Positions 888-16,711 of a DNA stretch of 17,405 bases are shown here, piece by piece. The position numbers and the translations under genes are program-made. Location: positions 1,223,303-1,240,707 of the forward strand of contig CP070751.1 in the NCBI GenBank assembly GCA_020348445.1, written 5' to 3'. The notes under the pieces were generated by a model. That model was not told the DNA's origin. It worked only from the letters and a program-made list of their open reading frames with translations, and did not search any database. Numbering within the stretch: the stretch's first letter is position 1; every line of letters starts with the position of its first letter. Source of the stretch: Thermoplasmata archaeon. GTDB lineage: Archaea; Thermoplasmatota; Thermoplasmata; GCA-020350865.

Positions 888-1098
888 GTTAAGTGACGAC
901 CTCGTTCTTCGCTCTGTTGGGTAATCACCAACAACCGCTAAGGATTACTTCCTAATAAATGCTATTGGTCCAGAAGCAACCCTCCGGCTTAACGGAGCCA
1001 ACCTCCTACCTCCGGGCGAGGCATCACCTTCCACCCTCTAACCTTTCGCTCCTGCGCTGGACCCTGTGCAATCGGTACTCCCCTACCTGCTCGGAGCG
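888..1098. repeat. Repeat R1, subtype A
   Basis: gttaagtgacgacctcgttcttcgctct ... ccctacctgctcggagcg. Confidence 0.9.
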
Positions 1099-1117
1099 GG
1101 CTTGGGTGGATTTACTT

Positions 1118-1375
1118 TTAATAGATATTATCATGATGATCATAATCAAAAATAGTTACGGTCTTACTTTCTTCATCAATTTCATAAACAATTACAAAGG
1201 ATCCTATATGAGCTCTTCTAAGACCATCTAATGGGAATTTAAGTGGTTTAAAATGATATGGATCTTTTAAAATTTGTTTTATCTTTTTTCCAATCCGTCT
1301 TAATTGTTCTTTATCTTTTTTAGCTAACTTCTTAAATATCTTATCCGCTGAAGGCTTGATTTCAAGATTGTACAT
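1118..1375 (-). CDS. relE: RelE/ParE-superfamily toxin
   Basis: MYNLEIKPSADKIFKKL...LKDPYHFKPLK...RRAHIGSFVIVYEIDE pattern, 85 aa, basic. Confidence 0.8.
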   Translation of the reverse strand: MYNLEIKPSADKIFKKLAKKDKEQLRRIGKKIKQILKDPYHFKPLKFPLDGLRRAHIGSFVIVYEIDEESKTVTIFDYDHHDNIY

Positions 1376-1609
1376 TTAATTCAATCCATATCGATCTTCG
1401 AAAGATTTCACTTTAATACTCTTTTCCTTGCGGATTTTCTTGATTTTATCGATATATTCAGGTCTTAGTTCAGGTTCCATCACTTCTTCTTCGTAGATAT
1501 CTACTACTTTTTCAATTGCTTCGGATTTATCTTTAAGACCGTACTGTGCTTTTACAATGTTGAGTACTTGATTAGTGCGATTATCGATATCTATTATAGC
1601 TTTCACCAT
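1376..1609 (-). CDS. Antitoxin, resembles the archaeal DUF2683 family
   Basis: MVKAIIDID..NQVLNIVKAQYGLKDKSEAI..EPELRPEYI; directly upstream of the RelE-like gene. Confidence 0.7.
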   Translation of the reverse strand: MVKAIIDIDNRTNQVLNIVKAQYGLKDKSEAIEKVVDIYEEEVMEPELRPEYIDKIKKIRKEKSIKVKSFEDRYGLN

Positions 1610-1665
1610 ATTAACACCATGTTAATGTCATATATATTCCATATATATTTAATACTTTCGCTAAT
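1610..1665 (-). promoter_or_regulatory. Putative archaeal promoter of the TA cassette
   Basis: Minus strand gaaagtattaaa (1648-1659); direct repeat catatatatt at 1629 and 1640. Confidence 0.45.
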
Positions 1666-1689
1666 ATTTTCGTAAATCCACCCTTCGCC

Positions 1690-1889
1690 TTTAAGCCCCA
1701 TCCCTAAAACCATTATCTCTCTACGAGGATAAAGGTTTTGCCACTCCGTCGTGCGCTATGCCATGTGTACACTGGTAGTCGCTAATGATTTCTCCCTTTG
1801 GTCGCAACTTCTCCGCTCGGTCGTAACCTCGCTCCGAAGCGGAGCTTCCACAGATGCTTGCGTCAATGGGACATTGTCCTCGCATCGAA
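1690..1889. repeat. Repeat R2, subtype B
   Basis: tttaagccccatccctaaaaccatt ... gcttgcgtcaatgggacattgtcctcgcatcgaa. Confidence 0.9.
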
Positions 1890-1915
1890 AGGCGAACTAC
1901 GAAATGCTCTGTTTG

Positions 1916-1968
1916 CCACACCCTTCCGCTCCTCCGCTGAACCCACAAACGCCTTCTGCTCGGAGCGG
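1916..1968. repeat. Partial right-end fragment of a subtype C-like repeat inside the cassette
   Basis: ccacacccttccgctcctccgctgaa...cttctgctcggagcgg resembles 13850-13900. Confidence 0.7.
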
Positions 1969-1995
1969 TGCTGAAAGTCGTATGCCCCTTCAATT

Positions 1996-2403
1996 TTACT
2001 TCAATCGTAGTTCTTCTCCTTTGTCAAACTCAGCGAGAAATTGATCGATAGCTTTTACTCTACCTAATATTGGTGGAACATCATCGCTCTCTGCGATCAA
2101 AACAGGCGCTTCTAATTCATGACCACCTACTCTCATTTTTAGGTTATGCAGATAAACTACTAATCTGGCATAAGGTACAATGCCACTTACATCAGTTCTC
2201 ATTCCACTCTCTATATTCTCAATAAACATTGATCCTTGGGAGTATGGCAATACCGATAAATCAGCCCCTGTATCAACGAGAACATTCTCAATTATAAACC
2301 ATTTGTTACCTATTGGAGAGAAAATTTCAATATCTATTAATGGTCTTTTTATAATTCCCAATATCTTGCTGTGACGCTCTTTATATTTATGACTATTAGA
2401 CAA
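1996..2403 (-). CDS. Retropepsin-like (clan AA) aspartic protease
   Basis: RPLIDI...VLVDTGADLSVLP...PILGR signature; TTG start. Confidence 0.8.
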   Translation of the reverse strand: MSNSHKYKERHSKILGIIKRPLIDIEIFSPIGNKWFIIENVLVDTGADLSVLPYSQGSMFIENIESGMRTDVSGIVPYARLVVYLHNLKMRVGGHELEAPVLIAESDDVPPILGRVKAIDQFLAEFDKGEELRLK

Positions 2404-2551
2404 TTAGAATATCCTCCTTTGTAGGCACCCAGGACACAGATATTTTCCTATTAGGAAACTTATTCATTATCTCCTGGAATTTACTTTGGAGGTCTAAACC
2501 TTCCCATATCACATTATCATCTACCTTTATTATATACTTGTGATTGGGCAT
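2396..2551 (-). CDS. Small 51-aa protein (MPNHKYIIKVDDNVIWEGLDLQSKFQEIMNKFPNRKISVSWVPTKEDILIV), partner of the protease; not in the ORF track
   Basis: Hand translation; caggtga RBS upstream; TATA-like ctttatata at 2586-2594; overlaps the protease start. Confidence 0.65.
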   Translation of the reverse strand: MPNHKYIIKVDDNVIWEGLDLQSKFQEIMNKFPNRKISVSWVPTKEDILIV

Positions 2552-2670
2552 ATTGCGTCACCTGATATTAGATAGTATTTTAGCCTATATAAAGCCATCG
2601 CAATTATTTTAGCCCTTAATCGAGGCATCCCTTTATTATTATTGCTTATTTGGGCATTCCTCCGTTCGCC

Positions 2671-2870
2671 TTCAAGTGACGAACCCCGTCCTGAACGTTC
2701 GCTTCCGTCACTATTATTGACACGCTCACATGGGATTGCTCCCTTATCGTCTTTTCGATTATTTAGTCGCAACTCCTCGGTTACGGACCCATGCCCTACC
2801 TCGGAGCGGGGCATCATCCCTCCCCTAACCTTGCGCCCCTGCGCCGGCCCTACCCTACCTGCTCGGGGCG
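2671..2870. repeat. Repeat R3, subtype D
   Basis: ttcaagtgacgaaccccgtcctgaacgttcgct ... ccctacctgctcggggcg. Confidence 0.85.
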
Positions 2871-2895
2871 TCCTCGGAGAGGCCATTTAATTAGA

Positions 2896-3633
2896 TTATT
2901 CTTCTATTCTGCTTTTAATTTCCTTCTGGATTTTTTTATGATATCCTCTGTTATTACTGAATGCTAGAAAAGGAAATGTTCTCCCATCAGTAAGATAAAT
3001 ATTCCCCCGATCCACATTTGATATTTCTTTCCAACGGAATTCATACTTTCGATAGGGGAGAACCAATTCTAATGTATCTTTTCTGTAAACCACCTTATTA
3101 GGTGGTAAGATATATCTAACTCTTCTACCAGATATTTCATCCTTATTAATATATATCCTGTTCTTTTTAGCAATATCAAAAAGAAGATGCTTGCCTCTTT
3201 TCCCAAGCTCTCCTTTTTCTAAAAGAATTCGTTCATTGTATTTGGTAATCAAACAGATAGCCGCAATCCCAGGTATTCCTAAACTCTTATTTTTATAATC
3301 ATTGGGTAAAATTTCAATTATATCCTTATAATCTATTTTTTTCCGCTTATCGCTAAAAAAACCATCTGGTATTTCAAGATCATTTTGATAAAAAATTATG
3401 GGTTTCCTTTTAAAAGCAACATATAATTCCAAAATTGCTACAAGTAATACTATTGGACCTACTACTAAATATAATAATCTCGAAATAAGTTCTGATCCCC
3501 GAAAGTTGGTGCCAGGAATTAGGGCTAAGGAGATAATTAATATGGAAAGGAAAATCAACAAAAATCCAATGAATTTTGAAAGCCAAACATTGTTATAACA
3601 ACGGTAAATAATTTTTTCATTAGATTCATCCAC
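2896..3633 (-). CDS. Hypothetical membrane protein, two N-terminal TM helices plus soluble region
   Basis: 245-aa ORF filling the cassette; hydrophobic stretches FIGFLLIFLSILIISLALI and LLYLVVGPIVLLVAILEL. Confidence 0.7.
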   Translation of the reverse strand: MDESNEKIIYRCYNNVWLSKFIGFLLIFLSILIISLALIPGTNFRGSELISRLLYLVVGPIVLLVAILELYVAFKRKPIIFYQNDLEIPDGFFSDKRKKIDYKDIIEILPNDYKNKSLGIPGIAAICLITKYNERILLEKGELGKRGKHLLFDIAKKNRIYINKDEISGRRVRYILPPNKVVYRKDTLELVLPYRKYEFRWKEISNVDRGNIYLTDGRTFPFLAFSNNRGYHKKIQKEIKSRIEE

Positions 3634-3680
3634 TTTTGCTCACCCCAATAAGGATGGCCTTTCCTCGGACCCTTCGGGCT

Positions 3681-3958
3681 CTTAAGCCCCAACCTTGGCT
3701 CAGTCGTTTTCGGTATTTGTTTGATATAATATAAAACCTACCTTCACTCCCTCGCCAACCACCTCGCCGTGAACATTCGCTGCCGTCACCCAGAGGGTTT
3801 ACTCACTCACATGCGATTGGAGGTTTTTCCGTCTTTGACAGGTGCCACCTCCAACCCGTCGTGCAAACGGCCTTCCCTGCAACTCCGGGCGAGGCATCCA
3901 CCTCCCTCACACCGTTTCGCTGGCTCACCGAAGCCCTACCCCTTCAAGTTCGCCGACG
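3681..3958. repeat. Repeat R4, subtype C (divergent right end)
   Basis: cttaagccccaaccttggctcagtc ... gtgcaaacggccttccctgcaactccgggcgaggcatcc. Confidence 0.85.
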
Positions 3959-3979
3959 GGGAACTCGGGTGCATAGTTA

Positions 3980-4192
3980 TCATATCTCTTTCGGTTCATT
4001 AATTCGACGCAAGATTATGATAATAGGAATGATAAATAAGATTATTAAAATAATTCGAATCGTCCATATCACATTTTTATTAGAGGTGTTTAGGAAAAAA
4101 GTTAGGTATAAAAAAATGAACCAAAGGAAAATGTCAATATAGACTAAAGCATCAAAATAATTAATATTTCTTCCATTAAGTTCATCTTCCAT
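3980..4192 (-). CDS. Small hypothetical membrane protein (2 TM)
   Basis: 70 aa; ggtga RBS; fills the cassette. Confidence 0.65.
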   Translation of the reverse strand: MEDELNGRNINYFDALVYIDIFLWFIFLYLTFFLNTSNKNVIWTIRIILIILFIIPIIIILRRINEPKEI

Positions 4193-4211
4193 CTTTTCAC
4201 CCTTCGTTCCC

Positions 4212-4552
4212 TTAAGTGACGACCTCGTTCTTCGCTCTACCGGTTTTCACCTGTAACCGCTAAGGATTGCTTCCTAATAAATGCTATTGGTCCGGAAGCA
4301 ACCCTCCGGCTTCGTGCTCCCTTCAGGAGCACTTAGTTGTTAATTTATTCCCCTAATAAATGCTGGAAGTCATAAATTCCCAACTTAACGGACCCTCGTC
4401 CTACCTCCGGGCGAGGCTTCACTTTCCACCCTCTAACCTTTCGCCTCTGCGCTTCTGATGTCTCGCTTCGCTCGCCATCTGAATTTTCAAATTTCTTCGA
4501 AATCCGAAAATGGACCTGGTAATATTGGTTCTCCCCTCCCTGCTCGGAGCGA
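4212..4552. repeat. Repeat R5, subtype A with 74-nt and 58-nt inserts (longest copy)
   Basis: ttaagtgacgacctcg ... ccctccctgctcggagcga. Confidence 0.9.
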
Positions 4553-4578
4553 GCGAGGAGCCCCAATTTAATAGATTA

Positions 4579-4815
4579 TTATTTCTTTAGCGTTGATTTA
4601 AGTTGTTTTGGATTTAAATATAGTTCAATATGGCCACAATCTAAGCAAGTTCCACATAGAACTTGTTCACCTGAAAGCATCTTATTTGAAGAACGATATA
4701 ATATGCTCGATCCAGTGAATGCTCCAACTGCAAAGCTTCCAGATGTAACAAGAGATCCATAATCAAGTTCACCGCCACAATAAGAACACTTTTGTGATTT
4801 ATTCTTTGGTTCCAT
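4579..4815 (-). CDS. Small Zn-ribbon protein
   Basis: CSYCGG...CLDCGHIELY (two CxxC); ggtgaggag RBS. Confidence 0.7.
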   Translation of the reverse strand: MEPKNKSQKCSYCGGELDYGSLVTSGSFAVGAFTGSSILYRSSNKMLSGEQVLCGTCLDCGHIELYLNPKQLKSTLKK

Positions 4816-4832
4816 AATAATCGCTCCTCACC

Positions 4833-5052
4833 TTCAAGTGATGACCTCGTCCTAAACATTCGCTGCGTCGTTTATAGACGTCTCCGCTCACATAGAATTA
4901 CTCCTTTATCGTCTTTTCCATATCATAGTCGTAACTTTTTGGCTTCACGGCTCCTCAGCCTACCAAAAAGCGAGGCATCTCCTCCTCCCCTCTAGCCTTT
5001 CACTCCTGCGCTGGACCCTATACTATCGGTACTCCCCTACCTGCTCAGAGTG
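4833..5052. repeat. Repeat R6, subtype D
   Basis: ttcaagtgatgacctcgtcctaaacattcgctgcgtc ... cccctacctgctcagagtg. Confidence 0.9.
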
Positions 5053-5092
5053 GGCAACATTGGGCACTTTGTTACAATTAATATGTAAAATT

Positions 5093-5752
5093 TTAACTTC
5101 CATATCTAATCGGGTAGTTACTAGCTTTTATGTTAATATTATTGATCTTTTTTTCAATTTCATTAATTCCCTCTAGTAAATTCGCAAACAGTGGATTTCG
5201 ATTTAATTTTTCTTGCGTAATAGGAATTTTAACTTCTTTTATTTCTTTTAAAACTAAATGATATCTTCTAAGATTAAATTCCCTCTTAAATTCAAAGGCT
5301 AATGATTCGGCAGCTTCAAGAACTTCTACCGTCCATTTTCTTGGGGTATCTTTTGGAGTTTTCCAATTGGTATCTTTAAAATCTACATAAAGGCTTTGCT
5401 CTCTAATTATATTTAGGTCTTCAAATATTATAGTTCTTATTGCAAGGTCAATAGCATCTTTACCAAATAAACTTAGATCTGCAAAACTTGCTGTATATTG
5501 TTTCCTTTTATGATTTCTCCAAGTTTTCCAAAAAGTACCCCACTCAATTTTTTGTCCATTATTAATCCATACTGCTGCTAACAATAGTAAGTAAACTTTT
5601 CCAAGTTCTTCTAATGATGATATTGCTATAGCAGTTGCTGTTGAATAACGTCTTTTGCTATATAATCTCCTAGCGTCCTCTGCTAATTTATATCCGTTTT
5701 CTGCACATATACAAGCGCCTTTGATTGCTTCTTCAAATGTTATTTTTGACAT
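5093..5752 (-). CDS. AbiV-family (HEPN) abortive-infection protein, 219 aa
   Basis: LAEDARRL..RYSTA..A...LEELGK, NHKRKQ, REQSLYVDF...WKTP motifs; true start MSKITF at 5752 with aagggg RBS (the track extension to 5884 lies in R7). Confidence 0.75.
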   Translation of the reverse strand: MSKITFEEAIKGACICAENGYKLAEDARRLYSKRRYSTATAIAISSLEELGKVYLLLLAAVWINNGQKIEWGTFWKTWRNHKRKQYTASFADLSLFGKDAIDLAIRTIIFEDLNIIREQSLYVDFKDTNWKTPKDTPRKWTVEVLEAAESLAFEFKREFNLRRYHLVLKEIKEVKIPITQEKLNRNPLFANLLEGINEIEKKINNINIKASNYPIRYGS

Positions 5753-5791
5753 ATTACCCCTTCCCAAATTATTATCGTGCCCAATGTTGCC

Positions 5792-5991
5792 GTTAAGCCC
5801 CATCCCTAAAACCATTATTGTCCTTCGGACATAAAAGTTTTGCCACTGCCCTCCTTCGTTTTGTTGTTTATTGCTAACAACCACTCACGGTTGCTCAGCC
5901 TTCGGCCTCGCAACATCTCCGCTCGGTCGTAACCTCACTCCGAAGCAGAGCTTCCACAGTTGCTTGCGTCGCTAGAAAGCGTTTCGCAGCT
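5792..5991. repeat. Repeat R7, subtype B
   Basis: gttaagccccatccctaaaacc ... gcttgcgtcgctagaaagcgtttcgcagct. Confidence 0.9.
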
Positions 5992-6028
5992 AAGGCGAGG
6001 AATTTGTTATCACTTACTTCCTCGCCTT
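5992..6028. other. Empty (gene-less) cassette: perfect 11-bp inverted repeat around a 15-nt spacer
   Basis: aaggcgaggaa 5992-6002 / ttcctcgcctt 6018-6028, between two complete repeats. Confidence 0.8.
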
Positions 6029-6281
6029 CAAGCCCCGTCCGCTCATTGCGCTGGCTTATTTCACTATCATTCTCTACGCCTGCTCGTTCGCCCCTAAAAC
6101 CATTATTGTCCTACGAACATAAAGGTTTTGCCACTCCGTTCTGCGCTTTGTTGATTATTGCTATCAACCGCTAAGAATTGCTCGGATTTCATCCTCGCAA
6201 CTCCTCGTTCGGGTCGTAACCCTCACTCTGAGCAGAGCTTCCACAGTTGCTTGCGTCAATTGAAAATTGTCCTCGCAACTA
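6027..6281. repeat. Repeat R8, subtype B with an extra left module
   Basis: ttcaagccccgtccgctc...cccctaaaaccattattgtcc ... tgtcctcgcaacta. Confidence 0.85.
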
Positions 6282-6340
6282 AGACGACTCCCTATTGTTA
6301 ATAACGAATGGAGGCACTTAGCTTATTCTCCCCAAACCCT

Positions 6341-6392
6341 CCACCACACCATTGCGTGCCTGTGCTGAAGCCATCCCCCTTCTACTCGGCAC
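6341..6392. repeat. Degenerate subtype C-like right-end fragment inside the cassette
   Basis: ccaccacaccattgcgtgcctgtgctgaagccatcccccttctactcggc. Confidence 0.6.
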
Positions 6393-6408
6393 TTATAGAT
6401 TAAAAATG

Positions 6409-7075: not shown

Positions 7076-7128
7076 GTTCAATTATCTAAAGTTCGTGCCT
7101 CCAGCCTCGCTTATTTTCGGGAGTCGCC

Positions 7129-7340
7129 TTTAAACCCCATCCCTACAAACCTTTAATGTGTTTCCATACTTAAACGGTTCGCGCCACTCCCCCAGCGGGC
7201 CGGTTGCTTCTTGTCCTCGATATATTTTGCTGGAAATATAACTCTTACTGTCGTCGCAACATCTCCGCTCGCCTCGTCGGCTAGCTCCGATAGGGAGCTT
7301 CCACAGATGCTAGCGTCAATGGGACATTGTCTTCGCATCG
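7129..7340. repeat. Repeat R9, subtype B
   Basis: tttaaaccccatccctacaaacc ... gggacattgtcttcgcatcg; only copy with AAA instead of AAG at the left end. Confidence 0.9.
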
Positions 7341-7390
7341 AAGGCGAGGGGGCTATTTAATTGCTTTTCGGAGTTTGGCTTTATACCTTA

Positions 7391-7449
7391 ACCTCCCCTT
7401 CCCATTTCGATTCTGCGCTGGCTCCATCCCCAACACCTGCTCGAATCGG
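7391..7449. repeat. Degenerate right-end fragment of an A/C/D-like repeat inside the cassette
   Basis: acctccccttcccatttcgattctgcgctggctcc...cacctgctcgaatcgg. Confidence 0.55.
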
Positions 7450-7470
7450 AAAATTCATAATTAAGATTAA

Positions 7471-8160: not shown

Positions 8161-8206
8161 AAATTATTAAAAGCCAATCTCCTTTTGTTTAAATTGCCCC
8201 CTCGCC

Positions 8207-8515
8207 TTAAGCCCCATCCCTAAAACCATTATTGTCCTACGGACATAAAGGTTTTGCCACTCCGTCGTCGCTTAGCTACATTATTATTGCAGTCGCTAAT
8301 GATTGCTCGGCCTTCAGCCTCACAACCCCCATGCTCGGGCCTGAACCCTCACTTGGGGGCGGAGCTTCCACGGAGGCCTGCGTCCTTTGCTCTTACCTTC
8401 TTCCTCCCCACACCGGTTGCGTGCCTACGCCTCCGATGTGCTCACTTCGTTCGCCCATCTTAGTTTTCAAATTTCTTCAAAATTCGAAAACGAAGCCGTC
8501 CCCCTTATGCTCGGC
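8207..8515. repeat. Repeat R10, degenerate chimeric copy (B core, C-like tail, remnant of the 58-nt insert)
   Basis: ttaagccccatccctaaaacc ... cctccccacaccgg ... ttttcaaatttcttcaaaattcgaaaa ... tatgctcggc. Confidence 0.75.
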
Positions 8516-8661
8516 ACGCTTTTTAAGGAGGGAATTGTCTAAAGCATATATTGAATAATATGCGAGAAAATTATAAATATCGCAAACTCCATGTATGTCT
8601 GGCTTTGGAAGGGAACCAACACGTGCGTTCTCGAGGGGCCAATACAAGGAGGGAGTAAGAT

Positions 8662-11241
8662 ATGAGAAGATTTACATTTGTTCTTATTGTACTTGTACTT
8701 AACATGACAATTGTCGAACTTGCGACAATGGTACCGACCGTTCCCGCCGAGCCTGGGCTACCTCTTGAGTCCATGGCCACATATCATCTGAGCTACAAGG
8801 GAAGGTACGAGCACCAGCCAAAAGGTCCCGATCACCTACTGGGCCTTGAGATGGTCAATGGGGAGCTCTTGGTCACAGGTTATCTTGGCGCCTACTTTGT
8901 GGACTGGAGCCTTGCCAACTCGTCCTATCTTACCACGTACATCTCACATTTCAAGCCCAAATTCAACATTACGACCAACCGGGATGATGCTCCAGTTCCT
9001 CCCGAATCAGAAAATTATTCCCCAAGTTTCTACGGATCGGTGACTTATGACGCTGGCGGTGGAACCAAGTATATATACATTAATGCCAGGTACGTCGGCA
9101 TCTATATCCTGTCAACGAGAGGGACCAATCTCAAATACCAAGGCCGGATAATACAGAACCGTCGTTTTTCCGAGGGTTTGGCAATAGACGGCGATTATCT
9201 ATATGCCGCCCACCATGCGGACGGCATCGAGATCTACGACCTGTCCGCTAATCCCGCAAGTCCAACGGTCGTCGGGAACATCACGACCGGCTTCACTGAT
9301 GCCTGGGCCGTCTTCCCGGCTGGTAACACACTTTACGTGGCTGACGGTCGGGGCGGTCTTAAGGTGGTGGACATATCGAACAAGGCCAATCCTTCCATAA
9401 CATGGTCTGAAGACCCGACCACAAGCCCAGGCAACATGATGGACGTCGTGGCCGTTGGAGACTACGTGTATGGAGCCTGTGGTGGTCAGGGCATAGCCGT
9501 CTACAAGAGAGACGCATTCGATCAGAGGACAGTCACCATGATCAATGGATCGTCCCAAGCCTTGGCACGAATGGCCCAGGAGGACATTGCCGTGGCAGCC
9601 CGGTCATGGATACATGTCATACGTCCCGACGGTGCTGGCGGCTTTGATATCCTTGCCTCCGAGAGGATGATAAGGAGGGCCGGAGACAAGGCACTCATGG
9701 GGCGAATAGCCCAGGACATACTAGTTGTGGGAAAGCAGGTAGTCTCTGCCTCCTGGGACCAGGTAGATGTGTACGAGCTCATGGATAACCCGTCAGACAA
9801 CCAACCTGATGTCCTCTTCGGCAAGCAGATGGTCAACTTCGGTGTCGACGGACGGTCTGAATCCATAAAGATAGAGAACCAGGGCACGGCCAACCTGAAA
9901 TTACACCAACCCCAGATAGAGTCCAAGGGTAAATTCCAGGCCACCCTTTCAAAGGGATGGGTCCCACCAGGTGACTTTGCTTGGTTGACCATCACCCACG
10001 ACGGACGAGGGAACGATACCAGAGCCAATATAACCATCCAGACGAATGATCCCGACGAGAATCCCATCAGGTTCATGGCCTATGGTAGGACAAGATATGT
10101 CGATATCGGAGAGCCGATGTACAACTTCACTCTTGACTCGGGTCAGGGTGACTTCAGCGGACCTACCCCAGAATGGACCTTCACCAACATTAACGTGTCA
10201 GACCGAGTCGGCGAGAGGGTACCTGTATTGGAGACACCGCTCCCCGACCTGACCATGGAGGAGGACAACGTCACCAGTGGGATCGATCTACTGAACGTGT
10301 CTGGCCACTTCACATCAGGAACCACTGGAAAAGTAACTCTCTATGTGATAGTTGGTTCTTGGTGCCCAGCATGTCCTCCAGCCTTCACATCCATTGGATA
10401 TGACTTCTATCAGAGATATCAGCATCGCGACGATTTCGATGTCTATCTCATGAGTAAGATGGAGAACAATGGCACAATGATGCATCTCATGGAGAAGACG
10501 AGGATTCCTGGAGGCATGATATTCGACGAGGTCGGGAATATTACCAATCGTACCCTCAAACAATACGATGTCGGCTTACCTTTTGGTAGGAGCTACATCG
10601 TCGACCACAAGGGCATAATCAGATCCGTGGGAAGGGGCTACAATCCCCATGGTGCATGGAAGGTTCTTGACGGGATTTTTGCCGAGATTGACAATGCAAC
10701 AGACCTAAGGTACGAGGTCTCATATGAGGAGAACCCATTGATACTGGAAGCCTCAGGTGGGAACGGACCATTATTCTCCTTCATTCAAAACCAACCGAAT
10801 TGGATCGGTAGCCTATCGTTCAAGGTCAGAGCCCTGAACTCGGGCGAGGACTGGATTCCCAACAATTCAGATGATATGAGCCTGGAAAGCAATCTCTTCA
10901 ATGTGACAGTCCTTCCAAAAGTCCTTTCATCAATGATTAACATCGACCCCAACACTCTCAACCTAAAATCCAAAGGCAGATGGATAACCTGCTATATCAA
11001 TCTAAATGACCCTTACGATGTCAACAACATAGACATCAGCACTATTCTTCTTGAAGACACAATCCCAGCTGAATGGGGTGACATTCAAAGCGACACGCTT
11101 ATGGTCAAATTCGACAGAAGCGATGTTGAGGATATGCTTTCTATTGGAACTTACAATCTGAAGGTTACTGGTGAGTTGACAGATGGGACCTCGTTTGGGG
11201 GATATAGTGATGAGATCAGGGTTATTGATCCTGGGAAATAG
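8662..11241 (+). CDS. Large secreted multidomain protein: signal peptide, LVIVD-like beta-propeller repeats, Ig-like domain, thioredoxin/AhpC-like CxxC domain, cadherin-like segment, C-terminal domain
   Basis: Hydrophobic N-terminus; repeats such as YLYAAHHADGIEIYDLS and LYVADGRGGLKVVDIS; SWCPAC; ggaggga RBS; clearly more GC-rich than the cassette ORFs. Confidence 0.85.
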   Translation: MRRFTFVLIVLVLNMTIVELATMVPTVPAEPGLPLESMATYHLSYKGRYEHQPKGPDHLLGLEMVNGELLVTGYLGAYFVDWSLANSSYLTTYISHFKPKFNITTNRDDAPVPPESENYSPSFYGSVTYDAGGGTKYIYINARYVGIYILSTRGTNLKYQGRIIQNRRFSEGLAIDGDYLYAAHHADGIEIYDLSANPASPTVVGNITTGFTDAWAVFPAGNTLYVADGRGGLKVVDISNKANPSITWSEDPTTSPGNMMDVVAVGDYVYGACGGQGIAVYKRDAFDQRTVTMINGSSQALARMAQEDIAVAARSWIHVIRPDGAGGFDILASERMIRRAGDKALMGRIAQDILVVGKQVVSASWDQVDVYELMDNPSDNQPDVLFGKQMVNFGVDGRSESIKIENQGTANLKLHQPQIESKGKFQATLSKGWVPPGDFAWLTITHDGRGNDTRANITIQTNDPDENPIRFMAYGRTRYVDIGEPMYNFTLDSGQGDFSGPTPEWTFTNINVSDRVGERVPVLETPLPDLTMEEDNVTSGIDLLNVSGHFTSGTTGKVTLYVIVGSWCPACPPAFTSIGYDFYQRYQHRDDFDVYLMSKMENNGTMMHLMEKTRIPGGMIFDEVGNITNRTLKQYDVGLPFGRSYIVDHKGIIRSVGRGYNPHGAWKVLDGIFAEIDNATDLRYEVSYEENPLILEASGGNGPLFSFIQNQPNWIGSLSFKVRALNSGEDWIPNNSDDMSLESNLFNVTVLPKVLSSMINIDPNTLNLKSKGRWITCYINLNDPYDVNNIDISTILLEDTIPAEWGDIQSDTLMVKFDRSDVEDMLSIGTYNLKVTGELTDGTSFGGYSDEIRVIDPGK

Positions 11242-11328
11242 AAAAATTAGAAACGACAATCCCCTCCTTTTACTATCAAACGAACGCAGGCCTCGGAATG
11301 GCATTCAGCTACAGCGTGATATACCATT

Positions 11329-11537
11329 TCTAAGTGACGACCTCGTTCTTCGCTCTACTTGTTTTCACCCGTAACCGCTAAGGATTACTTCCTAATAAAT
11401 ACTATTGTTGTGGAAGTAACCTTCCGGCTTAACGGACCCTCGTCCTACCTCCAGGCGAGGCTTCACTTTCCACCCTCTAGCCTTTCGCCTCTGCGCTGGA
11501 CCTGATACAGTTGGTTGGCCCCTACCTGCTCGAGGCG
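11329..11537. repeat. Repeat R11, subtype A
   Basis: tctaagtgacgacctcg ... ccctacctgctcgaggcg. Confidence 0.9.
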
Positions 11538-11593
11538 GGCGAAGGCTCTAAGAAGTATCGGTGGGGGCACTTAATTCCTCATTATTATAAACA

Positions 11594-11926
11594 TTATACT
11601 GGCATATTAACTTTATAAATCTCTTCACGTTTATATAGATACAAAGCAAAAATTATTATTGGTATTATAAATGCTAAGATTCCCCATAATTGAGGTGACC
11701 ATGCTACAACACGGGAATGTTTACGCCTTGGTGGTGCATTACCTGCATTAATTTTTTTAGCATCTGAAAAGATCATAATACTGGTAAATAAATGGTAGAA
11801 GGTAAATATTCTACCAAATCCTATAATTAATATACAAATCGCATCCATATTTAATAATATCGAAAATAAAGTTGAATATATTAAAGCTATAAAAAACACT
11901 TCGAGAATAAATAAGAGAATTAGCAA
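11594..11926 (-). CDS. Hypothetical membrane protein; frame is open upstream to a possible ACG start at 11971
   Basis: Three hydrophobic segments; SPQLWGILAFIIPIIIFALYLYKR C-terminus. Confidence 0.65.
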   Translation of the reverse strand: MLILLFILEVFFIALIYSTLFSILLNMDAICILIIGFGRIFTFYHLFTSIMIFSDAKKINAGNAPPRRKHSRVVAWSPQLWGILAFIIPIIIFALYLYKREEIYKVNMPV

Positions 11927-12009
11927 ATTATTTTTCTTATATACGTATCTTTTTCGTTTGGGAATATTCGTGCCCCCTACCTTCCAATATAAATCGCCTT
12001 CGCCTCGCC

Positions 12010-12226
12010 TTTAAGCCCCAGCCCTACAAACCTTTAATGTATTTCCATACTTAAACGGTTTGCGCCACTCCTTCAGTGTACCGATTGCTCCTAGTCCTAT
12101 GATTATACATCATCGAGTATATCAATGTTGACTCTCGTCGCAACTTCTCCGCTCGCCCCGTTGGCTCACTCCGAAGAGGAGCTTCCACAGATGCTTGCGT
12201 CAATGGGTCATTGTCCTCGCATCGAA
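12010..12226. repeat. Repeat R12, subtype B
   Basis: tttaagccccagccctacaaacc ... tgtcctcgcatcgaa; very similar to R17. Confidence 0.9.
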
Positions 12227-12254
12227 GTCGGTCGGGTGTTGACTTTATTGAAAA

Positions 12255-12521
12255 TTATTTTCTATATCCTCGACCTCGTTTAAAAACTTCAATTACTCTT
12301 ACAGTTTTTTTCTCAATTAGATAAATAATTCGATATTCTCCAACTCTAAGACGGTGTTTTTGAGGTTTAGTTCCACTTAAAGGTGATATATCTGCATTCG
12401 GGCGAGCTTTTATTGGATCTTTTTCTAATTCTTTTAAACCTGCTTTTATCCGTTTTTGTACGCTTTTATTGAGAGAATTAAATATCTTTTGAAAAGTTCT
12501 TGAAACTAGAACTTTGTACAT
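12255..12521 (-). CDS. relE: RelE/ParE-superfamily toxin
   Basis: MYKVLVSRTFQKIFNSL...LEKDP...HRLRVGEYRIIYLIE...VIEVFKRGRGY. Confidence 0.9.
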   Translation of the reverse strand: MYKVLVSRTFQKIFNSLNKSVQKRIKAGLKELEKDPIKARPNADISPLSGTKPQKHRLRVGEYRIIYLIEKKTVRVIEVFKRGRGYRK

Positions 12522-12706
12522 TATAATTCGTCCAATGGAATAAATTCATCTTCTTCAAGAATCTTGTTCCATCTAGCATCTAGCTTCTTCCAGCTAGCTT
12601 CTTTAATTAATTTATTAATTACCTCATCATAACTCTCACCCTTCTCTCCTAATTGTCGCAGTAACTCCTTAGTTTCATGCGTTACAGCTACAGTTGTCGT
12701 TGTCAT
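12521..12706 (-). CDS. Putative antitoxin (RHH-like)
   Basis: TTVAVTHETKELLRQLGEKGESYDEVINKLI; acidic C-terminus; stop/start overlap with relE. Confidence 0.75.
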   Translation of the reverse strand: MTTTTVAVTHETKELLRQLGEKGESYDEVINKLIKEASWKKLDARWNKILEEDEFIPLDEL

Positions 12707-12770
12707 CTATAACACCTATAGAGCATATAGAAGTTATATTATTTATAGTTTATGCTATAAAAAGTTTACA
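12707..12770 (-). promoter_or_regulatory. Putative TATA-like promoter/operator of the TA cassette
   Basis: Minus strand ctttttata (12756-12764); inverted repeat agcata 12722-12727 / tatgct 12751-12756. Confidence 0.4.
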
Positions 12771-12795
12771 TCAAAATCGTCAACACCCTCCCTCC

Positions 12796-13061
12796 TTAAG
12801 TGAAGACCCCGTTCTTCGCTCTATTGTCTATCACCATCAATCGCTAAGGATTACTCCCTATTTGGTTTTATCGTTGAGGGAGTAACTTTTTTGCTTAACG
12901 GACCCTCGTCCTACAAAAAAGCGGGGCTTCTTTCTCCGCCCTCTAACCTTTCGCTCCTGCGCTTCTGATGTCTCGCTTTGCTCGCCATCTGAATTTTCAA
13001 ATTTCTTCGAAATCCGAAAATGGACCTGGTACTATTGGTACTCCCCTACCTGCTCGAGGCG
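12796..13061. repeat. Repeat R13, subtype A variant with the 58-nt insert
   Basis: ttaagtgaagaccccgttcttcgctct ... ccctacctgctcgaggcg. Confidence 0.9.
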
Positions 13062-13086
13062 GGAGGCTTGCTACGGAGAAATTTCC

Positions 13087-13602
13087 TTATATTTTAGTAG
13101 ATCCACTACTCAGATAGTCTGCGAGAGTATATACATTGAATCTACCGCTTAGATATGATGTGATTTCATTTAATTCAGGTATTGAATCAGAACTCTTTTT
13201 TGAAATCCATATCCTGGTATAATCAGGATTAGGCTGTGATTCCTTGGCTATATACAAGTTAGTCCTTATCTCAATGAGTTCAAATCTATATTTACCCGGA
13301 TCAAAATAATAATCTTTCATTTTTTCAGTTAGTTGATATTTTATTTTATTATTTATGAGATAGGTTTCTATCGTAGAAATCACTTCTTCAATCTGTCTAT
13401 CAATTACTATCTGCTCCCATCTCCCAGTCCCAGTAGAGAATGTAAATAGAACAATGAATATTATTACTAAAACTATTAAGATAATAAATAGATCTGTCCA
13501 AGCTTCATACAATGATGAATATAAAATAATTGAAATTGGAATGACACCAATCAGTAAAATGATTGCTATCCTTTTGGCTATTTCTTTATTTATTTCTCTC
13601 AT
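13087..13602 (-). CDS. Hypothetical membrane protein (2 TM plus soluble domain), 171 aa
   Basis: Start MREINK at 13602 after a ggagg RBS; the track extension to 13632 lies in the inverted repeat/R14. Confidence 0.7.
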   Translation of the reverse strand: MREINKEIAKRIAIILLIGVIPISIILYSSLYEAWTDLFIILIVLVIIFIVLFTFSTGTGRWEQIVIDRQIEEVISTIETYLINNKIKYQLTEKMKDYYFDPGKYRFELIEIRTNLYIAKESQPNPDYTRIWISKKSSDSIPELNEITSYLSGRFNVYTLADYLSSGSTKI

Positions 13603-13627
13603 TGAAATTTCTCCTCCGCTCGCCTCC

Positions 13628-13899
13628 TTCAAGCCCCAACCTTGGCTCAGTCGGTCTCAATATGCTCTTACGATTCTTTAAACCTTTCGTCTTCCTTTGC
13701 CAACCACCTCGCCGTGAACATTCGCTTGTGTTGTCCAAAGACATACCCGCTCACATGCGATTATTCCTTTTAGCGTCTCTAGTACGAGCCAGTCATAACT
13801 CGTCGTGCAAACGGCCTTCCCTGCAACTCCGAGCGAGGCATCCACCTCCCCACACCATTTCGCTCCTCCGCTGAAGCCCTACCCCTTCTGCTCGGAGCG
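13628..13899. repeat. Repeat R14, subtype C
   Basis: ttcaagccccaaccttggctcagtc ... ccctaccccttctgctcggagcg. Confidence 0.9.
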
Positions 13900-14409
13900 G
13901 GAGACATCGGTTTCTAATTGATATTTGCCCTGAAATGTTTTTATCTCACATTTTGATTCTAAAAATTTCAATGCATTCTTTGATATCTGCCAAATTCTTA
14001 CGAGCTTATCTTGATATTTTATCTTTATTTTTGGTGTAAGATCGCCATACCATAAATATTGCTTTGTTGTGCGTTCTGGGATCATGATGTATTCAATATC
14101 AGCATATTTTATAAATTCTTTTTTCAAAGGATTTCTATACAAAAGAATTCCATTTTCATAGTATTTGATCCCACGTTTATAATAATTAATAAAACCTAAA
14201 ATAGCAGTAAATAAAAAAAAGATTACTGGTGCATAAAGTAGAAAGTCGTTCCATAAATCTCCCTTGAATAATGATTCGTCAATAGTCAAGTAGAGATAAT
14301 TTAAGTAAACAATTTCAAATATAATTGACACTACTAAAATCATAAAATATATCTTACGATTTTCATTAGTCATAACAAATGGACCTTTATCAATATCATT
14401 AACATCCAT
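13879..14409 (-). CDS. Hypothetical membrane protein (2 TM); stop codon lies inside R14
   Basis: 176 aa; C-terminus TDVSRSEQKG is encoded by the inverted repeat and repeat end. Confidence 0.7.
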   Translation of the reverse strand: MDVNDIDKGPFVMTNENRKIYFMILVVSIIFEIVYLNYLYLTIDESLFKGDLWNDFLLYAPVIFFLFTAILGFINYYKRGIKYYENGILLYRNPLKKEFIKYADIEYIMIPERTTKQYLWYGDLTPKIKIKYQDKLVRIWQISKNALKFLESKCEIKTFQGKYQLETDVSRSEQKG

Positions 14410-14461
14410 TAATCATATCTCCCAAGATGCACCCTTCAGTTCAATATCAACCGATGTCTCC

Positions 14462-14732
14462 TTAAAGCCCCAACCTTGGCTCGGTAGTCAATCGCTTTGC
14501 TAAGATTTATTATTATCGCTCTTTCCTCCCTCTCCAACCACCTCGCCGTGAACATTCATTACCGTCATCCAGAGGATGTACCCATTCACATGCGATTGGA
14601 GGCTTTTCCGTCTATGACATGTGCCACCTCCTACCCGTCGTGCAAACGGCCTTTCCTGCAACTCCGGGCGAGGCATCCGACCTCCCTTAACCTTTCGCTC
14701 CTCCGCTGGCCCTACCCTACCTGCTCGGAGCG
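14462..14732. repeat. Repeat R15, subtype C
   Basis: ttaaagccccaaccttggctc ... ccctacctgctcggagcg. Confidence 0.9.
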
Positions 14733-14743
14733 GGAGGTGGCAA

Positions 14744-15130
14744 CTAAGAATTCAATCTTTTTATTTGTGAATATGCTCTTAGAAAAGGAATAAATAAAAG
14801 GAAAACACCAGGCAAAACTAGAATAAAATAGAGTGTCACATTCACTAATAGTGCTATTGATAGAGACAATATGATCATAACAACTCCTACAATGAATACA
14901 ATTCTATCAATTTTTGATCCTAAAAATGTCTCATTATCAATGGGATTAGATTGAATTAAAGGAATCAAGATGAATATAAAGCTTAGAATAAAACCAACTC
15001 CGGCTAAAATTAAAAAAGCATTGCGTTTTATAATATCGAAGTTATTTTGTTGAATATAAATAAATATTCCAAATATAACAAATGGAATTACTATCCCCGT
15101 ATAAAGAAACATTTGTTGTGATTTATTCAA
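14744..15130 (-). CDS. Hypothetical membrane protein (about 4 TM)
   Basis: 128 aa, strongly hydrophobic, TTG start, fills the cassette. Confidence 0.7.
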   Translation of the reverse strand: MNKSQQMFLYTGIVIPFVIFGIFIYIQQNNFDIIKRNAFLILAGVGFILSFIFILIPLIQSNPIDNETFLGSKIDRIVFIVGVVMIILSLSIALLVNVTLYFILVLPGVFLLFIPFLRAYSQIKRLNS

Positions 15131-15184
15131 AGTTAGCCCTTTTACGATTCTATTCCCTCCTCTTTATTATTCGTTGCCACCTCC

Positions 15185-15402
15185 TTCAAGTGATGACCTC
15201 GTCCTAAACATTCGCTGCGTCAATTACTGACGTCAACGCTCACATAGAATTACTCCCTTATCGTCTTTTCGATTTGCGGTCATAACTCCTCGGGCCCAAC
15301 GGCCACCCTGGACCTCAGAGCGAGGCATCTCCTCCGCCCCTCTAGCCTTTCGCTCCTGCGCTGGACCCTGTACTATTGGTACTCCCCTACCTGCTCGGAG
15401 CG
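15185..15402. repeat. Repeat R16, subtype D
   Basis: ttcaagtgatgacctcgtcctaaacattcgctgcgtc ... cccctacctgctcggagcg. Confidence 0.9.
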
Positions 15403-15452
15403 GGAGGCGGAACTTTTTATAAAGTCGGGATGCTACTAAAGAGATTACTCAA

Positions 15453-15818
15453 TTAACTAAATGATGAAATGTAATTATTGATTCCCTCTTCAATCCTTTT
15501 AATATATTTACCACCGACAACCAACCCCCAAGTCTTATAACTCACATTTGATTTTGTTTCGTACATAATCAAAAATACTGATTGAATTATCGTTGAATGT
15601 AAACCTGTTTTATCTACTAGCTTATTCATTTCACTTATAGTATTTTCATTTAAATTATTCTTAACTAACAGAATGATTGATGCACCTGATTCTCTTGTGA
15701 ACCATTTACTTTTATATCTTTTAGTAATATACGTCCGAACTATTTCCTTAATTTTCATTAGATCATCAATGGAATCAACCCTTAAATCTGTTAAATCTAT
15801 GATAATTGCCACATACAT
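15453..15818 (-). CDS. Hypothetical soluble protein
   Basis: 121-aa ORF, AT-rich, no family recognised; about 140 bp AT-rich leader upstream. Confidence 0.6.
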   Translation of the reverse strand: MYVAIIIDLTDLRVDSIDDLMKIKEIVRTYITKRYKSKWFTRESGASIILLVKNNLNENTISEMNKLVDKTGLHSTIIQSVFLIMYETKSNVSYKTWGLVVGGKYIKRIEEGINNYISSFS

Positions 15819-15995
15819 TGTAATTTTCTTTTCCTTATAAAAAACACTTATAATATTAATCTCCTCATATTTTTCTCCATCAATTTTTTTAAAAATTTAT
15901 ATCTTTGAGTTTATTTTCAATTTCATTTACTAAAGTTTGATACATAAATTATACCTCCTGTTACGCATCCCTTTTATGAATTTCGTTCCGCCTCC

Positions 15996-16212
15996 TTCAA
16001 GCCCCATCCCTACAAACCTTTAATGTGTTTCATACTTAAACGGTTTGCGCCACTCCTTCAGTGTACCGATTGCTCCTAGTCCTATGATTATACATCAAAG
16101 AGTATATCAATGTTCACTCTCGTCGCAACTTCTCCGCTCGGGCCGTTTCCCTCGCTTCGAAGAGGAGCTTCCACAGATGCTTGCGTCAATTGGAAATTGT
16201 CCTCGCATCGAA
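15996..16212. repeat. Repeat R17, subtype B
   Basis: ttcaagccccatccctacaaacc ... tgtcctcgcatcgaa. Confidence 0.9.
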
Positions 16213-16221
16213 GGTGAGGCT

Positions 16222-16449
16222 CTAAATATTCTCGGCTGTATCTATTTTTTTCTCATTACATGTTTTATACAATCTAATGTAAATGGCATTCATTGCAGTG
16301 AGCGTTAAAATAATTACGATAAATTGACCGATATGTAATATATGTGTATATACATCTTCCACACCATATTTAGTTAAAAGACCAAGAGACATACCTATAA
16401 TTACAAAACTTGGTCCCAGTAAAGACCATTTCGATATTTTTACGCTCAT
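16222..16449 (-). CDS. Small hypothetical membrane protein (2 TM)
   Basis: 75 aa; ggagg RBS; fills the cassette. Confidence 0.65.
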   Translation of the reverse strand: MSVKISKWSLLGPSFVIIGMSLGLLTKYGVEDVYTHILHIGQFIVIILTLTAMNAIYIRLYKTCNEKKIDTAENI

Positions 16450-16502
16450 AGATCATTCCTCCACTTAATTCAAGATACAGCCTCGCTTTTATTCGCCTCG
16501 CC

Positions 16503-16711
16503 TTCAAGTGAAGACCCCGTTCTTCGCTCTGCTGTCTATCACCATCAACCGCTAAGGATTACTCCCTATTTGGTTTTATTGTTGTGGGAGTAACTTTTTT
16601 GCTTAACGGACCCTCGTCCTACAAAAAAGCGGGGCTTCTTTCTCCGCCCTCTAGCCTTTCGCTCCTGCGCTGGACCCTGTACTATCGGTACACCCCTACC
16701 TGCTCGGAGCG
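16503..16711. repeat. Repeat R18, subtype A variant without inserts
   Basis: Near-identical to R13 apart from the 58-nt insert. Confidence 0.9.

What the first reader, a model, noticed from the sequence alone, without database searches (positions are those of the whole stretch)
945..16593. Compensatory base changes show the repeats are folded structures
Seen, subtype A stem: ttGcttcc/ggaagCaa (4267-4274/4294-4301), ttActtcc/ggaagTaa (11385-11392/11412-11419), ttactCcc/ggGagtaa (16559-16566/16586-16593). In R1 (945-952/972-979) both mismatches would be G-T pairs on the minus strand. Seen, subtype B terminal hairpin: caatG-gga-Cattg (1864-1876), caatT-gaa-Aattg (6257-6269), caatT-gga-Aattg (16187-16199), replaced by a different hairpin cgct-agaa-agcg (5970-5981). 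Loops tgtcc-ttcg-gaca (5819-5831) and tgtcc-tacg-gaca (8233-8245) read as C(UNCG)G RNA tetraloops on plus, or C(GNA)G DNA triloops on minus; both are established extra-stable loops. Inference: selection acts on a single-stranded fold. Whether it is ssDNA or RNA, and which strand, is unresolved.
Basis: partly seen in the sequence, partly recalled or inferred. Interest (0 to 1): 0.75.

Follow-up and report, generated by a model that had tools for sequence, protein, structure and literature searches.

The report
Folded junction repeats of archaeal cassettes
The long repeats between the small genes of this sediment archaeon are conserved single-strand folds, formed by the strand that reads like the genes. 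They most likely serve as cutting sites for a single-strand DNA transposase that heads integron-like gene-cassette arrays.

Summary
Observation confirmed. Every coordinate is exact, and larger alignments show strong covariation. For A-type elements (123 distinct copies), 93.6% of cells pair against 83.2% when shuffled. 41 of 47 pairs carry double changes against 22 (0/500 shuffles). B core and B tail also pass.

The window's minus strand, which is the gene-sense strand, is the one that folds. G·U exceptions outnumber A·C 152 to 47, and the sense strand has the lower folding energy.

No Rfam family matches. The window is a whole contig of an uncultured Thermoplasmata MAG, and it is one cassette array.

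The conserved 5' hairpin (M1) occurs in 18 of 151 genomes sampled from the class. It co-occurs with one clade of IS200/IS605-type Y1 transposase genes. In five genomes of three families, that gene's right end stops at GTGACTT and cassettes start right after it. Junction elements end the same way, in CACTT or GGGGCTT.

Hairpin tips favour C(GNA)G triloops, the loops of very stable DNA mini-hairpins. My best reading (about 0.55) is folded single-stranded DNA sites that play the role of attC for an HUH transposase. A structured RNA is not excluded (about 0.25).

The scan has reported other repeat families with the same layout elsewhere in this MAG and proposed the same enzyme type there.

The parts
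16500..16721 (-).
   Evidence: Model R1, 257 bits; structure
11326..11547 (-).
   Evidence: R1, 249 bits
885..1108 (-).
   Evidence: R1, 240 bits
4208..4561 (-).
   Evidence: R1, 153 bits; nhmmer map
12792..13071 (-). A-type element with INS in the M1 loop
   Evidence: R1, 191 bits
15182..15412 (-). A'-type junction element (same frame, different P4/P5 arms)
   Evidence: R1, 151 bits; folds
4830..5062 (-). A'-type junction element
   Evidence: R1, 172 bits
2668..2880 (-). A'-type junction element
   Evidence: R1, 89 bits
13633..13909 (-). C-type junction element (M1 plus C body plus a tail ending in GGGGCTT)
   Evidence: nhmmer; R1, 34 bits; end motif
14460..14742 (-). C-type junction element
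3660..3935 (-). C-type junction element
15991..16219 (-).
12005..12233 (-). B-type junction element
7124..7458 (-). M1' module, then the cassette's 3' private repeat, then a B-type element
6075..6397 (-).
5787..6002 (-). B-type element whose first hairpin is replaced by CGCT-TTCT-AGCG (5970-5981); tail loop at 5819-5831
1685..1977 (-).
8203..8522 (-). M1 with INS plus a degenerate B core plus a B tail (loop at 8233-8245)
17256..17405 (-). B-type element cut by the contig end
1..252 (-). A-type element with INS, cut by the contig end
   Evidence: R1, 65 bits, truncated at its 3' end
15419..15990 (-). Example cassette: gene 15453-15818 enclosed by its private two-block inverted repeat, which lies flush with the neighbouring elements
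   Evidence: statistics over 121 cassettes
5992..6028 (-). 'Empty' cassette: an 11-bp private repeat around 15 nt, between two B elements

Best explanation
The repeats are cassette-junction elements of an integron-like array in an uncultured Thermoplasmata archaeon. They fold as single strands on the gene-sense strand, which is the window's minus strand.

Most likely the folded form that matters is single-stranded DNA. Each element carries a conserved irregular 5' hairpin (M1, or the B core). Its 3' part copies the right end of an IS200/IS605-type transposon: a hairpin, a short linker and a terminal CTT.

A Y1 HUH transposase (TnpA) is encoded at the head of such arrays. I infer that it cuts after this CTT and exchanges strands between two such sites. 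The junction element would then play the role of integron attC, and the transposase's own right end the role of attI.

The private inverted repeat around each gene would be the closing helix of the junction element in a circular single-stranded cassette.

Shown: the fold, the strand, the shared end motif, and the co-occurrence and synteny with tnpA. Inferred: the cleavage, the circle and the direction of the reaction.
For: Fold: covariation in all helices.

Strand: G.U 152 against A.C 47; 32 pairs against 4. The sense strand has the lower energy.

Enzyme link:
- Y1_Tnp genes lie on element-bearing contigs of G000, G002 and G003 and of G035, which belongs to another family.
- In a sample of 151 genomes of the class, the M1 core is in 18 and the close tnpA clade in 20.
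- 15 genomes have both, 3 only the element, 5 only tnpA, and 128 neither. The families holding both are f1, f2, f9, f17, f21 and f23.
- Five genomes of three families show tnpA followed by a right end that stops at GTGACTT, with a cassette starting immediately after. Upstream of tnpA is ordinary chromosome.

Shared end: 147 of 154 elements with a tail module end in CACTT, GACTT or GGCTT.

Cassette boundaries: homologous cassettes break at the upstream element's end in 3 of 3 pairs. They carry the downstream element along in 2 of 3.

Loops: C(GNA)G triloops on the folding strand occur in 27 of 34 B tails and 15 of 23 M1 tips in other families. Such loops are exceptionally stable in DNA and much less so in RNA (PMC13037366, PMC3201870).

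Exclusions: no reverse transcriptase, at most one weak TnpB-like match (22 bits) and no integron integrase near the arrays.
Against: - No cleavage, circle, or empty-versus-filled site was observed.
- IS200/IS605 biology as known needs only small hairpins. It does not explain three extra covarying stems, the B-core stem-loops with NNCG loops and tandem G.A, or the private repeats across genes.
- The private repeats show no sense-strand wobble excess (23 against 39).
- This 17-kb contig carries no tnpA.
- A stem across 300-2000 nt of single-stranded DNA seems unlikely if single-stranded gaps at archaeal forks are short (my own expectation, not checked here).
- The same strand is transcribed with the genes, so an RNA would fold the same way.
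- Co-occurrence across related genomes is not independent evidence.
Confidence: 0.55

Rival explanations
1. The elements act as structured RNA. They are co-transcribed with the cassette genes and serve as processing punctuation, insulators or stabilisers. The private repeats would pair the 5' and 3' untranslated ends of each message.
For: The folding strand is the transcribed sense strand. A-type elements form a four-way junction with conserved unpaired bases and an invariant U.G. The B core has NNCG loops (UACG, UUCG) and tandem G.A. Pairing across 300-2000 nt is easy in RNA. The co-orientation with the genes also fits.
Against: No Rfam family matches at E<=1. No known ribozyme or protein-binding motif was found. 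C(GNA)G triloops favour DNA (PMC13037366). The elements share their 3' end with a DNA transposon's right end and co-occur with its transposase. Nested insertions and module swaps are DNA events.
Confidence: 0.25
2. Dual or guide use. The element RNA plus the private repeat that follows it acts as a guide, in the manner of an omega RNA or bridge RNA. It would pair with the complementary repeat at the other end of the cassette and program where the HUH enzyme acts.
For: The private repeat starts exactly at the element's 3' end, where IS605 omega RNAs carry their guide. It is complementary to a site on the same strand. Archaeal IS200/IS605 omega RNAs are known to be expressed (PMC12558985).
Against: No OrfB_IS605 match and only one weak 22-bit TnpB-type Zn-ribbon match, not near an array. 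No precedent exists for RNA-guided TnpA. There are no expression data.
Confidence: 0.07
3. The elements are canonical integron attC sites used by an IntI tyrosine recombinase.
For: The layout fits: co-oriented small accessory genes, including toxin-antitoxin pairs, each separated by a folded repeat.
Against: Elements are 200-330 nt rather than 57-141. There are no R''/R' GTTRRRY boxes. The sense strand folds, not the bottom strand. Only two Phage_integrase matches exist in the MAG (one above and one below the Pfam cut-off), both on other contigs.
Confidence: 0.03
4. The elements are double-stranded palindromes or protein-binding sites with no single-stranded form, or the apparent pairing is chance among related copies.
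For: The copies are related, which can inflate shuffle tests.
Against: Slid-partner controls keep relatedness and still fall far below the observed values. The G.U against A.C asymmetry is not expected for duplex DNA.
Confidence: 0.03

Closest known systems
IS200/IS605 transposon ends and their gene-less derivatives (PATEs), cut by Y1 HUH TnpA on single-stranded DNA (IS608, ISDra2; PMC3597680, PMC6006769)
   Same: Strand-specific folded ends. A right-end hairpin, short linker and fixed terminal bases. An IS200-type TnpA with HUH and Y...Q motifs is physically linked. The new DNA begins right after a short conserved word.
   Different: Elements are 200-330 nt with up to nine covarying helices. 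They separate unrelated cargo genes in long co-oriented arrays. Each gene has a private inverted repeat. The transposase sits at the head of the array rather than inside each unit.
Integron attC sites and sedentary chromosomal integrons or CALINs, including archaeal ones (PMC9668308)
   Same: Arrays of promoter-poor accessory cassettes rich in toxin-antitoxin genes. Recombination sites are defined by single-strand structure rather than sequence. Cassettes are reshuffled between genomes.
   Different: No IntI and no R/L boxes. The sites are two to five times longer. The sense strand folds rather than the bottom strand. The likely chemistry is HUH rather than tyrosine recombinase.
REP/BIME repeats with RAYT (TnpA_REP) transposases
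   Same: Intergenic folded repeats tied to a Y1 HUH protein.
   Different: REPs are 20-40-nt hairpins scattered through the genome. The TnpA here is the IS200 type, not the RAYT type (motifs read). The array layout is absent from REP systems.
Omega RNAs of IS200/IS605 TnpB/IscB elements, and IStrons
   Same: A structured element of 150-300 nt at the transposon right end, with private sequence beginning at its 3' boundary.
   Different: No OrfB_IS605 match and only one weak TnpB-type Zn-ribbon match. No group I or group II intron match.

Membership tests
Integron attC | An IntI tyrosine recombinase gene adjacent to the array | tested here: not met
   PF00589 gives two matches in the MAG (47.3 bits, above the cut-off, and 22.4 bits, below it), both on other contigs. 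None lies in the element-bearing loci examined.
Integron attC | R''/R' boxes (RYYYAAC ... GTTRRRY) and a length of 57-141 nt | tested here: not met
   Elements are 200-330 nt. The conserved ends are CGCTCC... or CGATGC... at the 5' end and ...CACTT or ...GGGGCTT at the 3' end. IntegronFinder itself was not available.
Integron attC | The bottom strand, antisense to the cassette genes, is the folded substrate | tested here: not met
   The sense strand folds.
IS200/IS605 ends or PATE | An associated Y1 HUH transposase (PF01797) with HUH and catalytic Tyr motifs | tested here: met
   DHVH and Y-I-A-S-Q can be read in the L017:4049-4462 product. The window itself holds no tnpA.
IS200/IS605 ends or PATE | Sub-terminal hairpins on one strand only, with the right-end cleavage site a few bases 3' of the hairpin | tested here: met
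   One-strand fold. P2 or the tail hairpin is followed by 4-13 nt and a terminal CTT. The tnpA right ends have the same architecture.
IS200/IS605 ends or PATE | Insertion 3' of a short fixed target, without target duplication or terminal inverted repeats | tested here: inconclusive
   Cassettes begin right after CTT in 3 of 3 homologous pairs. However, each cassette has a private inverted repeat, and no empty-versus-filled site was found.
IS200/IS605 ends or PATE | TnpA-dependent cleavage and a circular single-stranded intermediate | not testable with these tools
   This needs biochemistry or read-level data.
Any Rfam RNA family (group I/II introns, ribozymes, omega/HEARO RNAs and the rest) | A match to the family's covariance model | tested here: not met
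   No match at E<=1 on either strand.
TnpB/IscB omega RNA | A TnpB or IscB gene overlapping or adjacent to the element | tested here: not met
   PF01385 gives none. PF07282 gives one weak hit, not near an array.
REP/RAYT | 20-40-nt REP hairpins flanking a RAYT-class TnpA | tested here: not met
   The element size and layout differ. The TnpA carries the Y...Q motif of the IS200 type, subclass 1.1 of PMC6006769.

The most novel reading that the evidence does not exclude
These arrays are a gene-capture platform that works like an integron but is built on HUH chemistry. A Y1 transposase gene sits at the head. Its right end serves as the landing site. Each cassette carries a 200-330-nt multi-helix single-stranded DNA element as its recombination site, closed in the free circle by the cassette's own private helix. 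A still bolder version, which the evidence does not exclude, is that element transcripts use the private repeat as a guide.
Probability: 0.4. Interest if true: 0.9.

Novelty: new variant of a known kind. Interest (0 to 1): 0.78.

Why it matters
If this reading is right, archaea have a second, independent solution to modular gene capture. The sites are defined by single-strand structure, as in integrons, but they are handled by an HUH transposase rather than a tyrosine recombinase.

That would widen the known roles of IS200-type enzymes. It would also explain why accessory regions of these sediment Thermoplasmata assemble so poorly.

The system offers a compact set of testable parts: one small enzyme and defined oligonucleotide substrates. 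The covariation data also supply a ready seed alignment and model for an element family that is missing from Rfam and occurs in several families of the class.

Tried and rejected
- Rfam at E<=1 and tRNA scans of the window found nothing.
- I first read L001 and L002 as flanks with housekeeping genes and no integrase. I withdrew this when the 'single contig' proved to be 354 contigs joined by 100-N spacers, with the window being one whole contig.
- IMG/VR scans for two element motifs found nothing.
- Reverse transcriptase (PF00078) and OrfB_IS605 (PF01385) were not found. The TnpB-type Zn-ribbon family (PF07282) gave one weak hit. Phage_integrase gave two matches on other contigs. This argues against retro-mobility, omega RNA and IntI models.
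- The array at 3.73-3.76 Mb holds only cargo genes.
- Group I/II intron or IStron reading: no model match, and no terminal-G or U.G logic is evident.
- Bulge-helix-bulge splicing of the private repeats: the repeats are two blocks with an equal-length internal loop, not helix-bulge-helix.
- 'Element inserted into a hairpin tip': rejected, because the flanks of one element are not complementary beyond 4-6 bases, while the flanks of one gene are.
- Wobble asymmetry in the private repeats was uninformative.
- M1 as the left end of the tnpA unit: no M1 lies upstream of tnpA.
- RNAalifold on plain MAFFT alignments of the B core missed helices that manual and column counts support.


Full report
**What the window is.** The 17,405-base window is one entire contig of a metagenome-assembled genome. 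The '5.16-Mb single contig' is 354 contigs joined by 100-N spacers, so its neighbours in that file carry no information. Related contigs are titled 'uncultured Thermoplasmata archaeon'.

The contig is one array. About 20 small genes lie on the minus strand: three PIN toxins, a MazE antitoxin, a HEPN/AbiV protein, small membrane proteins and orphans. Each gene is separated from the next by a 200-330-nt repeat. One 859-residue LVIVD/redoxin gene lies on the plus strand.

**Checking the observation.** To test whether the pairing is more than chance, I collected more copies:
- from the other arrays of the same MAG;
- from four genomes of the same genus;
- from 37 metagenome contigs found with a motif of the 5' module.

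Profile searches mapped about 210 elements. They are built from modules. There is a 5' hairpin module M1, a module M2, alternative 3' bodies A, A' and C, and a separate B type made of a core, a variable middle and a tail.

**The A-type fold.** In 24 full A-type copies, RNAalifold on the sense strand gives 47 pairs in nine helices:
- the M1 hairpin;
- a long-range helix P2 (columns 86-94 with 208-217) that closes a junction of three stems;

Counting gives 97.4% paired cells against 90.4+-0.5 after shuffling. 22 pairs have changes on both sides against 11.3+-1.8 (0/500). Partner-slid controls, which keep relatedness, give 2-8.

A covariance model built from this alignment found 126 matches in the loci held, each co-oriented with the other elements of its locus. 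On these, 93.6% of cells pair against 83.2+-0.3. 41 of 47 pairs show double changes against 22.2+-2.5, and 414 cells against 105+-18. This alignment is fitted to the model and leans towards it, but the plain MAFFT alignment gives the same answer.

**The B-type fold.** For the B core (35 copies) I wrote the structure by hand. It has:
- helix GAUGC/GCAUC, which alternates with GUUGC/GCAAC;
- a second stem-loop in which CUUC/GAAG alternates with CAUC/GAUG and UCCC/GGGA;
- a C-G pair that alternates with U-A, next to tandem G.A;
- an inner hairpin with UACG, UUCG or (G/A)ACGG loops.

Here 90.3% of cells pair against 77.9+-1.0, with 78 double-change cells against 30.4+-4.2. In the B tail (34 copies) the three apical pairs covary.

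On the plus strand TGTCC-TTC-GGACA is five pairs and a triloop. The C(UUCG)G register would leave a C.A mismatch below it.

**Which strand.** In pairs that are mostly Watson-Crick, the exceptions are G.U in 152 cells and A.C in 47. G.U exceeds A.C at 32 pairs, and the reverse holds at 4. Two further positions are U.G in most copies.

The sense strand has the lower folding energy in 23 of 23 A-type copies with RNA and with DNA parameters. Its consensus energy is also lower, -47.4 against -34.0. The folding strand is therefore the window's minus strand, the one that reads like the genes.

**What surrounds the elements.** Each gene is enclosed by its own inverted repeat, as earlier notes of this scan said. 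Over 121 cassettes the cognate flanks give a mean duplex energy of -37.8 kcal/mol against -27.7 for non-cognate flanks (Mann-Whitney p = 4e-23).

The repeats start flush with the upstream element's end and stop flush with the downstream element's start. They are two blocks around an internal loop of equal length on both sides.

Homologous cassettes in different arrays (about 87% identical) have unrelated upstream elements. Homology begins at the upstream element's last bases in 3 of 3 pairs. In 2 of 3 pairs it continues into the downstream element. So the unit that moves is bounded on its left by the 3' end of a junction element.

**The enzyme lead.** Following a lead from other follow-ups in this MAG, I searched for candidate enzymes. 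Results for the MAG:
- no reverse transcriptase match and no OrfB_IS605 match;
- one weak TnpB-type Zn-ribbon match (22 bits);
- two Phage_integrase matches, both on contigs other than the arrays;
- five Y1_Tnp (IS200/IS605 TnpA) matches. Two of them form a pair 1.2 kb upstream of an element on the same contig.

Homologues of this tnpA lie inside or beside element arrays in two other species of the genus and in a genome of another family.

A class-wide search with the model found the M1 core in 18 of 151 genomes, often as a roughly 90-nt minimal element in arrays. The close tnpA clade (best E-value 2e-26 or lower, about 45% identity or more) is in 20 genomes. 15 genomes have both, 3 only the element, 5 only tnpA, and 128 neither. 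At family level both features occupy f1, f2, f9, f17, f21 and f23. These genomes are related, so this is co-distribution and not a statistical proof.

More telling is the anatomy. In five genomes of three families the tnpA unit ends in a hairpin followed by (T)ACGTGACTT, and a cassette with its private repeat starts at the next base. Upstream of tnpA is ordinary chromosome.

Junction elements end the same way. 147 of 154 elements with a tail module stop at CACTT, GACTT or GGCTT. In A-type elements the helix P2 plus ACTT corresponds to the right-end hairpin plus linker of the tnpA unit.

**DNA or RNA.** Neither is proven. Four points favour single-stranded DNA:
- the enzyme link above;
- the shared right-end architecture;
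- clear DNA-level events, such as a 60-nt insertion at one exact point of the M1 loop, nested M1 hairpins and swapped middle modules;
- loop choice.

On the folding strand, the B-tail tip is a GNA triloop (GAA, GUA or GCA), mostly closed by C-G, in 27 of 34 copies. The M1 tip in other families is C(GCA)G or C(GAA)G in 15 of 23 copies, although the stems beneath differ. d(C-GNA-G) mini-hairpins are exceptionally stable and occur at single-strand replication origins. Their RNA versions are much less stable (PMC13037366; closing-pair dependence in PMC3201870).

Four points favour RNA:
- the folding strand is the transcribed one;
- A-type elements keep three more covarying stems and conserved unpaired bases than a transposase is known to need;
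- the B core has NNCG loops and tandem G.A;
- pairing across a whole gene is easier in RNA.

I put single-stranded DNA sites for a Y1 transposase at about 0.55, a purely RNA role at about 0.25, and a guide-like dual role at about 0.07.

**Proposed mechanism (inferred).** A free cassette is a single-stranded circle made of the private 5' repeat, the gene, the private 3' repeat and the junction element. In the circle the two private repeats flank the element and close it as a basal helix, with the CTT cleavage point at its 3' foot.

TnpA cuts there and after the CTT of a resident site, which is either its own right end or any junction element. It then swaps strands. The cassette lands downstream of the resident element, and its private helix is split to either side of the gene.

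This accounts for four observations:
- the repeats are private yet flush with the elements;
- the first bases of the repeat follow the type of the downstream element;
- left breakpoints sit at CTT;
- tnpA heads the arrays.

It does not yet account for the extra stems, or for the one cassette pair whose downstream elements differ.

**Comparison with known systems.** The system works like an integron, but it fails every defining test for attC and IntI.

It meets the IS200/IS605 tests that sequence alone can address: a Y1 TnpA with HUH and Tyr motifs, one-strand hairpins, and a right-end hairpin-linker-cleavage layout. It departs from that family in element size and complexity, in the array layout and in the private repeats.

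It matches no Rfam family. I found no paper describing it. The scan itself has reported other repeat families with the same layout in this MAG and proposed the same enzyme class there.

Noticed in passing
window 136-201, 4445-4510, 8425-8490, 12955-13020 (minus strand): A 60-nt mini-element ('INS') is inserted at one exact point of the M1 hairpin loop in four elements. It also occurs alone elsewhere in the MAG (G000 989268 and 2909156). It contains a GCGAAGC-type mini-hairpin.
   Followed up: partly
window 8662-11241 (+): This is the only plus-strand gene. It encodes an 859-residue secreted-looking protein with LVIVD repeats, an Ig-like domain and a redoxin domain. Its GC content is about 54% against about 38% for the rest. 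Its 3' part recurs next to elements in G002 (L057) and at 3.75 Mb of the MAG.
   Followed up: partly
window 5992-6028: An 'empty' cassette lies between two B elements: an 11-bp private inverted repeat around 15 nt, with no gene.
   Followed up: partly
L077:1231-1318 and 1710-1796; L079:1439-1525: In two genomes of family f17, 87-88-nt tRNA-like genes with a long variable arm lie between tnpA and its right end. ARAGORN calls them Phe-GAA (twice) and Leu-CAG.
   Followed up: partly
L017:3532-3876 (-) and L017:4049-4462 (+); also L055, L056, L057, L059: The tnpA genes come in pairs. One copy has HUH and Y...Q motifs. The partner is shorter, with a degenerate HUH and no Tyr motif. The pair is divergent in the orthologous head position and tandem inside arrays.
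   Followed up: partly
whole MAG (G000): The 'single contig' is 354 contigs joined by 100-N runs. Element arrays sit at contig ends or make up whole short contigs, so these repeats break the assembly.
   Followed up: yes
window, all cassette flanks (e.g. 15970-15990 and 15409-15425): Private repeats begin with GGAGG(C) or AAGGCGAGG and end with (G)CCTCC or CCTCGCCTT. These resemble a Shine-Dalgarno sequence and its complement, and lie 40-70 nt from the start codon.
   Followed up: no
window 5793-5854, 8207-8268, 15995-16059 (minus strand): The 5' arm of the B-tail hairpin holds a TATA-box-like word (TTTATG or TTTAAGTA) about 30 nt before the element's end. A promoter role was not tested.
   Followed up: no
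L067 (G035:C1:15000-26164), L068, L070, L071: Other Thermoplasmata families carry arrays of a roughly 90-nt minimal element (the M1 hairpin plus a short tail) spaced 0.6-1.3 kb apart. In G035 it is flanked by a direct AGCCAG(T/A)C word.
   Followed up: partly
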